From assembly GCF_045037415.1 (NCBI RefSeq), contig NZ_CP173438.1: DNA of 64,000 nucleotides. One strand, given 5' to 3'. Origin of the DNA: Escherichia coli. Its GTDB lineage: Bacteria > Pseudomonadota > Gammaproteobacteria > Enterobacterales > Enterobacteriaceae. The position numbers were made by a program, and so were the translations under genes. Of this stretch, positions 58,548-58,817 are shown piece by piece. Each line of letters begins with the position of its first letter. Positions within the stretch are counted from its first letter, which is position 1. Under the pieces are notes generated by a model that was not told the DNA's origin, ran no database searches, and saw only the letters and a program-made list of their open reading frames with translations.

Positions 58548-58817
58548 TTATTCAGCTTCACCGAAGCGGTCGCGAAATAAGGCGGTGAGAGTCTGTATGG
58601 CCTCGTTTTCATCATCACCGTCGCAGCGTATTTCCACCGTTTTTCCGCCTTTTATTCCGGCGCGCATAATATTCATCATACTGGTGGCATTAATATCATT
58701 ACCCTCATAGTGCAGCGTCACTTTACAGCTACATTTTTTGGCGGCTTTCGCCAGACAGGCCGCCGGACGTGCATGCAGGCCAGTACTGTTTCTGACCTCC
58801 ACGGTTTTAGTCAACAT
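58548..58817 (-). CDS. HPr-family phosphocarrier protein
   Basis: 89 aa ORF; conserved His15 context (GLHARPA) and Ser46 region typical of HPr. Confidence 0.8.
   Translation of the reverse strand: MLTKTVEVRNSTGLHARPAACLAKAAKKCSCKVTLHYEGNDINATSMMNIMRAGIKGGKTVEIRCDGDDENEAIQTLTALFRDRFGEAE

What the first reader, a model, noticed from the sequence alone, without database searches (positions are those of the whole stretch)
58548..58817. Operon-dedicated HPr paralogue inside the sugar island
An 89 aa protein with the HPr His15 motif (GLHARPA) and Ser46 region is encoded between the kinase and the aldolase. A private HPr implies the island runs its own phosphorelay branch, as with FPr in the fructose system or NPr, rather than relying only on general HPr. 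Its 5-prime end overlaps the kinase stop by 11 nt, suggesting translational coupling.
Basis: partly seen in the sequence, partly recalled or inferred. Interest (0 to 1): 0.5.

Follow-up and report, generated by a model that had tools for sequence, protein, structure and literature searches.

The report
Operon-embedded HPr phosphocarrier paralogue
The ORF is a real, intact and selectively maintained HPr-type phosphocarrier gene inside an accessory E. coli sugar-uptake operon of unknown substrate; databases already annotate it as HPr family, so it is a fairly ordinary find, but it belongs to a distinct, uncharacterised HPr clade that always travels with this type of operon.

Summary
Window 58548-58817 (minus strand) encodes an 89-aa HPr-family protein (Pfam PF00381, E 1e-28). 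His15, Arg17 and Ser46 align with reference HPrs. It lies between an FGGY kinase and a class II aldolase, and its start overlaps the kinase stop by 11 nt behind a strong Shine-Dalgarno site.

RefSeq already calls it "HPr family phosphocarrier protein". The island (GntR, IIA, IIB, IIC-Gat, kinase, HPr, aldolase) fills the nikR-yhhJ gap in 1635 of 5426 complete E. coli genomes.

The protein is not an orthologue of PtsH, NPr, FPr or DhaM. It falls in a separate clade found in all 33 related Enterobacterales cassettes that I could read in full.

The most likely function is an EI-dependent phosphocarrier feeding the cassette's own EIIA. That function is inferred, not shown.

- Ser46 is replaced by Gly in most of the clade, and gamma-proteobacteria such as E. 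coli lack HPr kinase.
- The kinase-HPr overlap is limited to one subclade; elsewhere the HPr gene follows the aldolase.

A regulatory link to the kinase remains possible but has no support. I rate it a new member of a known kind, of low to moderate interest.

The parts
58548..58817 (-). HPr-family phosphocarrier paralogue, 89 aa (His15, Arg17, Lys24, Lys27, Ser46)
   Evidence: RefSeq WP_000956440.1 'HPr family phosphocarrier protein'.
58807..58829 (-). Kinase-HPr junction: Shine-Dalgarno GGGAGGAG (58822-58829), HPr ATG (58815-58817), kinase TAA (58807-58809); 11-nt overlap
   Evidence: Read directly from the sequence. The overlap is kept in E. coli 042, O157:H7, BEN2908 and Z1323HEC0462.
58807..60315 (-). 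FGGY-family carbohydrate kinase, 502 aa, substrate unknown
   Evidence: NCBIfam gives only sub-threshold hits to XylB, GlpK and FucK. The best solved relatives are glycerol kinases at 88 bits. The ATP-site motifs are largely kept.
57665..58516 (-). Class II (FBA/TBP-type, PF01116) aldolase
   Evidence: NCBIfam NF005943 scores 555.9 bits against a cut-off of 364. The closest solved structure is AgaY tagatose-bisphosphate aldolase, 1gvf.
60308..61696 (-). PTS EIIC, galactitol (Gat) family; RefSeq start corresponds to window 61666
   Evidence: TIGR00827 scores 474 bits, below its cut-off of 542; RefSeq annotation.
61743..62024 (-). PTS EIIB (Gat type); its Cys9 aligns with the N-terminal Cys of solved GatB
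   Evidence: aligned to GatB structures 1tvm and 5gqs.
62021..62494 (-). PTS EIIA (PTS_EIIA_2 type, VAIPH motif); presumed acceptor of the HPr phosphoryl group
   Evidence: 208 bits to PDB 1xiz, 'putative PTS mannitol/fructose-specific IIA domain'.
62519..63274 (-). GntR/HutC-family (UTRA domain) regulator, first gene of the cassette
57564..57587 (-). Terminator-like hairpin downstream of the aldolase; likely end of the operon
   Evidence: pattern match only.

Best explanation
The gene encodes a functional HPr-type phosphocarrier that is a fixed component of a mobile 'Gat-PTS + FGGY kinase + class II aldolase' catabolic cassette. The most likely relay is: a host enzyme I, probably PtsI because the island encodes no EI, phosphorylates His15 of this HPr. 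The HPr passes the phosphoryl group to the cassette's EIIA (VAIPH histidine), then to EIIB (Cys9), then to a still unknown ketose or polyol entering through the Gat-family EIIC. The kinase and aldolase then process the sugar phosphate to triose-level products.

Carrying its own HPr probably makes the cassette independent of how well the host's general HPr fits its EIIA.

Shown here: family membership, intact active site, HPr fold, purifying selection, and constant presence in the cassettes. Inferred: the donor EI, the acceptor EIIA, the specificity relative to PtsH, and the pathway chemistry.
For: HPr family membership and fold are established. His15, Arg17 and Lys27 are invariant in the 19-sequence alignment of clade HPrs and position 24 is Lys or Arg; Lys24 and Lys27 are shared with PtsH, whereas NPr has Glu and Gln there.

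dN/dS is 0.07-0.21 between E. coli alleles with dS of at least 0.09. The ORF is intact in phylogenetically distant E. coli.

The cassette encodes a complete EIIA/EIIB/EIIC set with active-site His and Cys but no EI.

An HPr of the same clade is present in 33 of 33 fully readable Enterobacterales cassettes. Its gene moves between 'after the kinase' and 'after the aldolase', so it behaves as a cassette part rather than a kinase appendage.

Three of the four nearest outgroup HPrs I looked up (the fourth contig was too short to read) are also embedded in Gat-family PTS cassettes.

No equivalog model for PtsH, NPr, FruB or DhaM is satisfied. The clade is separate in a neighbour-joining tree.
Against: There is no biochemical evidence of any kind, and the substrate is unknown. 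The homologous Salmonella island was still listed under 'unknown sugars' in 2024 (PMC11000858).

HPr divergence does not track EIIA divergence. Pairwise-distance correlation is 0.38 with IIA against 0.67 with the aldolase. K. oxytoca-type and Raoultella-type cassettes share 80% identical HPrs but only 26% identical EIIAs. This argues against tight HPr-EIIA co-adaptation.

Related cassettes in Gilliamella and a Coriobacteriaceae MAG have no HPr within 7 kb, so a private HPr is not obligatory.

Frameshifted or truncated alleles exist in some public E. coli assemblies.
Confidence: 0.68

Rival explanations
1. The main role of the HPr is regulatory. Depending on its phosphorylation state, it binds or phosphorylates the neighbouring FGGY kinase and so ties the second phosphorylation step to PTS flux. 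Precedents are dephospho-HPr inhibiting the FGGY kinase LsrK, and HPr~P activating glycerol kinase in Firmicutes.
For: The two genes overlap in the Escherichia, Citrobacter and Pantoea cassettes and are adjacent in Paenibacillus. An HPr-FGGY kinase complex is documented for LsrK (PMC5983913). In sister cassettes the HPr gene directly follows a DhaK/DhaL kinase pair with no DhaM annotated in the stretches read.
Against: In most cassettes the HPr gene follows the aldolase, not the kinase. HPr and kinase distances correlate weakly, r = 0.36. The kinase loop equivalent to the phosphorylated His loop of Firmicute GlpK (loop position recalled from memory) contains no histidine. The LsrK pocket residues that hold HPr Phe48 are not specifically conserved, and E. 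coli GlpK looks just as similar. More distant kinase relatives that lack a PTS also lack an HPr.
Confidence: 0.12
2. The HPr is a functional but redundant passenger. General HPr (PtsH) serves the island EIIA equally well, and the private copy persists through linkage and modest dosage benefit, with no separate phosphorelay branch.
For: General HPr is known to serve EIIAs of many families (established knowledge of the E. coli PTS). HPr divergence is uncoupled from EIIA divergence. Related cassettes without an HPr exist. Truncated alleles occur.
Against: The HPr is retained in 33 of 33 enterobacterial cassettes despite repeated gene-order rearrangement, and it is under strong purifying selection. 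A dispensable 270-nt gene would be expected to be lost often.
Confidence: 0.15
3. The HPr is the phosphoryl donor for the FGGY kinase, which would then be PEP-dependent like the DhaK/DhaL/DhaM system.
For: The adenosine-binding motif of the kinase is IGPA or IGAA instead of the usual GGGA/DGGA. Sister cassettes pair a two-subunit Dha-type kinase with an HPr and no DhaM is annotated in the stretches read.
Against: The other ATP-site elements are kept: DIGTTNCK, GTT, the Gly equivalent to GlpK G310, the Asn equivalent to N415, and the catalytic Asp in GHDH. As far as I know, no FGGY kinase uses a protein phosphodonor.
Confidence: 0.03

Closest known systems
General HPr (PtsH) of E. coli and Firmicutes
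   Same: Same family, fold and size. Same active-site motif G-L-H-A/T-R-P-A, with Arg17, Lys24 and Lys27 kept. Presumably phosphorylated by EI.
   Different: Only 31% identical to E. coli PtsH (38% to B. subtilis HPr, 42-43% to Thermoanaerobacter HPr). It scores 47.8 bits against the PtsH equivalog cut-off of 153. It is not next to ptsI. It is encoded inside a sugar-specific operon and is present in only about 30% of E. coli genomes.
FPr (FruB), the fructose-specific HPr-like protein
   Same: An operon-dedicated HPr domain serving one PTS. This is the best functional analogy.
   Different: FPr is a fusion of IIA-Fru, a central domain and HPr (376 aa). This protein is free-standing, 28% identical to the FPr HPr domain, and falls in a different clade.
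NPr (PtsO) of the nitrogen PTS
   Same: A free-standing HPr paralogue of similar length with a GF-acidic C-terminal tail. It serves an EIIA of the same fold class (PTS_EIIA_2).
   Different: 32% identity. NPr lies in the rpoN operon, uses its own EI (PtsP) and has no transporter. NPr has Glu/Gln where this protein and PtsH have Lys24/Lys27.
HPr genes in sister Gat-PTS cassettes (PRD regulator, class II aldolase/adducin, DhaK/DhaL, HPr), including those on IncN plasmids
   Same: These are the nearest relatives outside the clade (about 44% identity). They are likewise free-standing HPr genes at the end of a Gat-family PTS operon that also encodes an aldolase and a second kinase.
   Different: They use a different aldolase family (PF00596), a different kinase family (Dak1/Dak2) and a PRD-type regulator. 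They are uncharacterised as well.
HPr-LsrK and HPr~P-GlpK regulatory pairs
   Same: A PTS phosphocarrier acting on an FGGY-family kinase (PMC5983913).
   Different: Those cases use the general HPr. Sequence comparison here gave no specific support for the same interface or phosphorylation site.

Membership tests
HPr family (PF00381 / TIGR01003) | Profile match above the curated threshold | tested here: met
   PF00381 at E 9.9e-29. TIGR01003 scores 100.9 bits against a cut-off of 47.9.
HPr family (PF00381 / TIGR01003) | Active-site His15 followed by Arg17 in G-[LIM]-H-[AT]-R-P-A | tested here: met
   G13-L-H15-A-R17-P-A19. It aligns with His15 of solved HPrs and of K-12 paralogues. His15 and Arg17 are invariant in the 19-sequence clade alignment.
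HPr family (PF00381 / TIGR01003) | Open-faced beta-sandwich fold (four strands, three helices) | tested here: met
   The AlphaFold model has pLDDT 86.5. Foldseek gives TM 0.90 to 3le3/3lfg and 0.88-0.89 to E. coli HPr.
HPr family (PF00381 / TIGR01003) | Phosphoryl transfer from EI to an EIIA | not testable with these tools
   This needs purified proteins and labelled PEP.
General HPr, PtsH orthologue | Equivalog score and ptsH-ptsI-crr context | tested here: not met
   NF008104 scores 47.8 bits against a cut-off of 153. Identity to K-12 PtsH is 31%. No ptsI is nearby.
NPr (PtsO) | Equivalog score and rpoN-operon context | tested here: not met
   NF008146 scores 46.8 bits against a cut-off of 119. 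Identity is 32% and the clade is separate. The context is a sugar operon.
FPr (FruB) / DhaM multidomain phosphoryl-transfer proteins | HPr domain fused to IIA-Fru or to IIA-Man/EI-like domains | tested here: not met
   It is a free-standing 89-aa protein. NF008319 scores 55 bits against 302 and NF008478 scores 47 bits against 520.
HPr-kinase-regulated HPr/Crh (Ser46 phosphorylation) | Conserved Ser46 and presence of HprK/P in the organism | tested here: not met
   Ser46 is present in the window's subclade but is Gly in most of the clade. ptsK was lost in gamma-proteobacteria except Xanthomonadales and Coxiella burnetii (PMC2405797). The host genome itself was not scanned for hprK.

The most novel reading that the evidence does not exclude
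The cassette HPrs, together with their nearest relatives in Dha-kinase cassettes, could form a class of 'second-kinase-coupled' phosphocarriers. On this reading their conserved partner is not the EIIA, which diverges freely. It is the downstream phosphorylation or cleavage module. The HPr would then gate, or in the Dha-type cassettes even feed, the second kinase according to PTS flux. That would be a dedicated version of the HPr-LsrK / HPr-GlpK principle, built into a mobile operon.
Probability: 0.12. Interest if true: 0.6.

Novelty: new member of a known kind. Interest (0 to 1): 0.3.

Why it matters
If the function is as inferred, island-bearing E. coli (ST131, O157:H7, O55:H7, 042, APEC BEN2908 and others) and Salmonella would have a seventh HPr-type protein beyond the six HPr-encoding paralogues counted in K-12 (PMC2405797). 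It would belong to a self-contained uptake pathway for a still unknown gut or environmental sugar.

The consistent retention of a private HPr across more than 30 enterobacterial species gives a clean system for asking a specific question: why do some horizontally transferred PTS operons bring their own phosphocarrier while most rely on the host's?

It also gives a handle for de-orphaning the STM3779-3785-type island. The gene itself is nonetheless an unsurprising, automatically annotated family member.

Tried and rejected
1. GlpK-type activation by HPr~P. The kinase loop equivalent to the Firmicute GlpK phospho-His loop has no histidine, so this has no support.

2. LsrK-type docking. I aligned K-12 LsrK with 13 cassette kinases. 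The HPr-binding pocket residues (L123, I148, L151, L152, A155, Y162, M210, A211) are not specifically conserved, and E. coli GlpK is equally similar. The test is uninformative.

3. Kinase-HPr fusion. A 594-aa hit with a C-terminal HPr (P0066) turned out to be a Sel1-repeat protein with tandem HPr domains, not a kinase.

4. Mirror-tree test for a co-evolving partner. HPr distances track only the aldolase (r = 0.67), which probably reflects linkage. They do not track IIA or the kinase.

5. Literature. I found no paper on this E. coli island or on cassette HPrs. Only the Salmonella island is mentioned, as 'unknown carbohydrate'.

6. Pseudogene or decaying remnant. Rejected on dN/dS and intact ORFs.

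7. The kinase-based scan of genome contigs did not return Salmonella. The link to Salmonella rests on the EIIA match to PDB 1xiz and on my recollection that 1xiz is STM3784.

Full report
**Observation.** The minus-strand ORF at 58548-58817 encodes 89 aa. It matches Pfam PTS-HPr (PF00381) at E 9.9e-29. It scores 100.9 bits on NCBIfam TIGR01003 'HPr family phosphocarrier protein', against a cut-off of 47.9. GLHARPA occupies residues 13-19. His15, Arg17 and Ser46 align exactly with the same residues of solved HPrs and of K-12 PtsH, NPr and the HPr domains of FruB, DhaM, FryA and PtsA, which I extracted from NC_000913.3. An AlphaFold model built on a 19-sequence alignment has pLDDT 86.5 and superposes on Thermoanaerobacter and E. 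coli HPr with TM about 0.9.

The HPr ATG (58815-58817) lies 4 nt downstream of GGGAGGAG (58822-58829). The kinase TAA is at 58807-58809, which gives the stated 11-nt overlap.

**Setting.** The window is E. coli chromosome. The island lies on the minus strand between yhhJ and nikR. Its gene order is GntR/HutC regulator, EIIA (PTS_EIIA_2), EIIB, EIIC (Gat family), FGGY kinase, HPr, class II (PF01116) aldolase. Gaps or overlaps between genes are tiny. No terminator-like site lies next to the HPr gene, and a hairpin follows the aldolase, so the genes most likely form a single operon.

RefSeq already annotates the ORF as 'HPr family phosphocarrier protein', WP_000956440.1. The island is present in 1635 of 5426 complete E. 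coli genomes, including ST131, O157:H7, O55:H7, 042 and APEC BEN2908. K-12 has rhsB-yhhH-yhhI in the same gap. The island encodes no enzyme I.

**Is the gene functional?** The 270-nt ORF and the 11-nt overlap are intact in alleles that differ by up to dS of about 0.2. For pairs with dS of at least 0.09, dN/dS is 0.07-0.21. The one higher value, 0.83 for window versus O157, rests on 4 substitutions. Some frameshifted or truncated versions exist in public assemblies. I could not tell whether these are real or sequencing errors.

**Which HPr is it?** No equivalog model is satisfied:
- PtsH: 47.8 bits against a cut-off of 153.
- NPr: 46.8 against 119.
- FruB: 55 against 302.
- DhaM: 47 against 520.

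Identity is 31% to K-12 PtsH, 32% to NPr, 28% to the FruB HPr domain and 26% to the DhaM HPr domain.

I scanned one genome per species with an alignment of the cassette kinases and obtained 77 loci. Annotating them with the seven island proteins showed two cassette types in Enterobacterales:
- Type A has kinases at least 62% identical to the window's. It occurs in Escherichia, Citrobacter, Klebsiella oxytoca, Cedecea, Rahnella, Phytobacter, Trabulsiella, Pantoea and others.
- Type B has kinases 35-40% identical, and where gene calls were available (L004/L005) a zinc alcohol dehydrogenase gene follows the kinase. It occurs in Raoultella, Erwinia, Serratia, Buttiauxella and others.

All 33 enterobacterial cassettes that could be read in full carry an HPr. 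These HPrs form one clade, separate from all six K-12 HPr-type sequences in a neighbour-joining tree (short proteins, no support values). In the 19-sequence alignment the invariant positions include N10-S11-T12-G13, H15, R17-P18-A19, K27, M48 and the C-terminal F85-G86-E87. Position 24 is Lys or Arg in every clade sequence. Lys24 and Lys27 are shared with PtsH, while NPr has Glu and Gln there. From this I infer that the sugar EI, rather than EI-Ntr, is the donor.

- Ser46 is confined to the window's subclade (Escherichia, Citrobacter, some Pantoea and Enterobacter). The larger subclade has Gly46. Gamma-proteobacteria other than Xanthomonadales and Coxiella burnetii lost HPr kinase (PMC2405797).
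- The kinase-HPr overlap (11, 26 or 32 nt) is also confined to that subclade. In the larger subclade the gene follows the aldolase. The HPr therefore behaves as a cassette component rather than a kinase appendage.
- The HPr is the most discordant part of the cassette. Between the window and Winslowiella, IIB, IIC, aldolase and GntR are 89-93% identical, IIA is 68%, the kinase 72%, and the HPr only 45%. Conversely, K. oxytoca type A and Raoultella type B share 80% identical HPrs and 88% identical aldolases but only 26% identical EIIAs. HPr distances correlate with aldolase distances (r = 0.67) and not with IIA (0.38) or the kinase (0.36). This probably reflects linkage and module shuffling. It argues against tight HPr-EIIA co-adaptation.
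- Related cassettes in Gilliamella and a Coriobacteriaceae MAG have no HPr within 7 kb. A Paenibacillus cassette has one right after the kinase, but that sequence falls outside the clade.

**Wider relatives.** A profile search of 1.84 billion representative proteins found only two 50%-identity clusters for the clade, followed by a drop in score. Four of the next free-standing hits were looked up. One contig was too short to read. The other three also sit at the end of Gat-family PTS operons, this time with a PRD-type regulator and a PF00596 aldolase, plus DhaK/DhaL kinase genes in two of them and an iron alcohol dehydrogenase in the third. A 44%-identical HPr in a cassette of the DhaK/DhaL kind is carried on about 45 mostly conjugative plasmids of Klebsiella, E. 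coli, Citrobacter and Enterobacter; the one I read in detail is IncN. Operon-embedded HPrs are thus a recurrent feature of Gat-type 'PTS + aldolase + second kinase' cassettes.

**Mechanism.** The best-supported reading is the canonical one: PEP to host EI, to island HPr (His15), to island EIIA (VAIPH), to EIIB (Cys9), to sugar entering through EIIC. The FGGY kinase and the FBA/TBP-type aldolase then convert the product to triose-level intermediates. The active-site residues were checked against solved homologues. Everything else in this chain is inference.

The island EIIA matches PDB 1xiz almost end to end, at 208 bits. I recall that 1xiz is Salmonella STM3784. That ties this island to STM3779-3785, described as a complete PTS of unknown specificity (PMC3604774) and still listed under 'unknown sugars' in 2024 (PMC11000858).

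**Rivals.** A regulatory link to the kinase has precedents, namely the HPr-LsrK complex (PMC5983913) and HPr~P phosphorylation of GlpK. The sequence tests gave no support: the GlpK-equivalent loop has no histidine, and the LsrK pocket comparison was uninformative.

A PEP-dependent FGGY kinase is unlikely. The ATP-site motifs are kept apart from IGPA in place of GGGA.

Redundancy with PtsH cannot be excluded, but it fits poorly with 33 of 33 retention and strong purifying selection.

**Verdict.** This is a new, uncharacterised but automatically annotated member of a well-known family. The searchable literature has nothing on this clade. Interest is low to moderate.

Noticed in passing
window 62021-62494 (-): The island EIIA matches PDB 1xiz ('putative PTS mannitol/fructose-specific IIA domain') almost end to end at 208 bits. 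That structure was re-used as the HIV MPER epitope scaffold T117 (3lf6, 4m62, 5sy8 and others). From memory, 1xiz is Salmonella STM3784, which would link this island to the uncharacterised STM3779-3785 island.
   Followed up: partly
L100 (NZ_CP091053.1 9744-20001); also L096-L098: About 45 plasmids of Klebsiella, E. coli, Citrobacter and Enterobacter, mostly conjugative (the one read in detail is IncN), carry a 44%-identical HPr. It sits at the end of a Gat-PTS cassette with a BglG/PRD regulator, a class II aldolase/adducin and DhaK/DhaL, with no DhaM annotated in the stretch read. A two-subunit Dha-type kinase next to a bare HPr is unusual.
   Followed up: partly
window 58807-60315 (-), kinase residues 407-410: The adenosine-binding motif of the FGGY kinase reads IGPA (IGAA in type B cassettes) where GlpK has DGGA. 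The other ATP-site motifs are conserved.
   Followed up: partly
loci L012-L049, L079, L086: Type A and type B cassettes share a conserved aldolase (80-90% identity) and GntR regulator (66-72%). Their EIIA, EIIB, EIIC and kinase are only 26-59% identical. This suggests swapping of the transporter/kinase module on a common backbone. Type B adds a zinc alcohol dehydrogenase, so it is probably a polyol version.
   Followed up: partly
window 57557-63460 compared with L099 (K-12 3619192-3625514): The nikR-yhhJ gap holds this sugar island in about 30% of complete E. coli genomes. In K-12 the same gap holds rhsB-yhhH-yrhC-yhhI.
   Followed up: yes
proteins P0016, P0027, P0042, P0043, P0055: Frameshifted or N-terminally truncated versions of this HPr, some lacking His15, occur in public E. 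coli assemblies; P0043 is seen on 55 contigs. They may be real lineage-specific decay or assembly errors.
   Followed up: no
hits H19 and H52: RefSeq names the same kinase 'L-fuculokinase' in some genomes and 'FGGY-family carbohydrate kinase' in most. The fuculokinase model is far below its cut-off (120.7 bits against 470.9).
   Followed up: no
protein P0066: A 594-aa metagenomic protein combines Sel1-like repeats with two tandem C-terminal HPr domains.
   Followed up: no
hit H1, NZ_CM190149.1: In E. coli strain 21335 the island match is split into two pieces with an IS1-family transposase annotated under it, so the island appears to be interrupted by an IS1 insertion.
   Followed up: no
window 52000-52600: A short AT-rich stretch (GC 0.37 against about 0.55 for its neighbours) lies just upstream of yhiI.
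   Followed up: no
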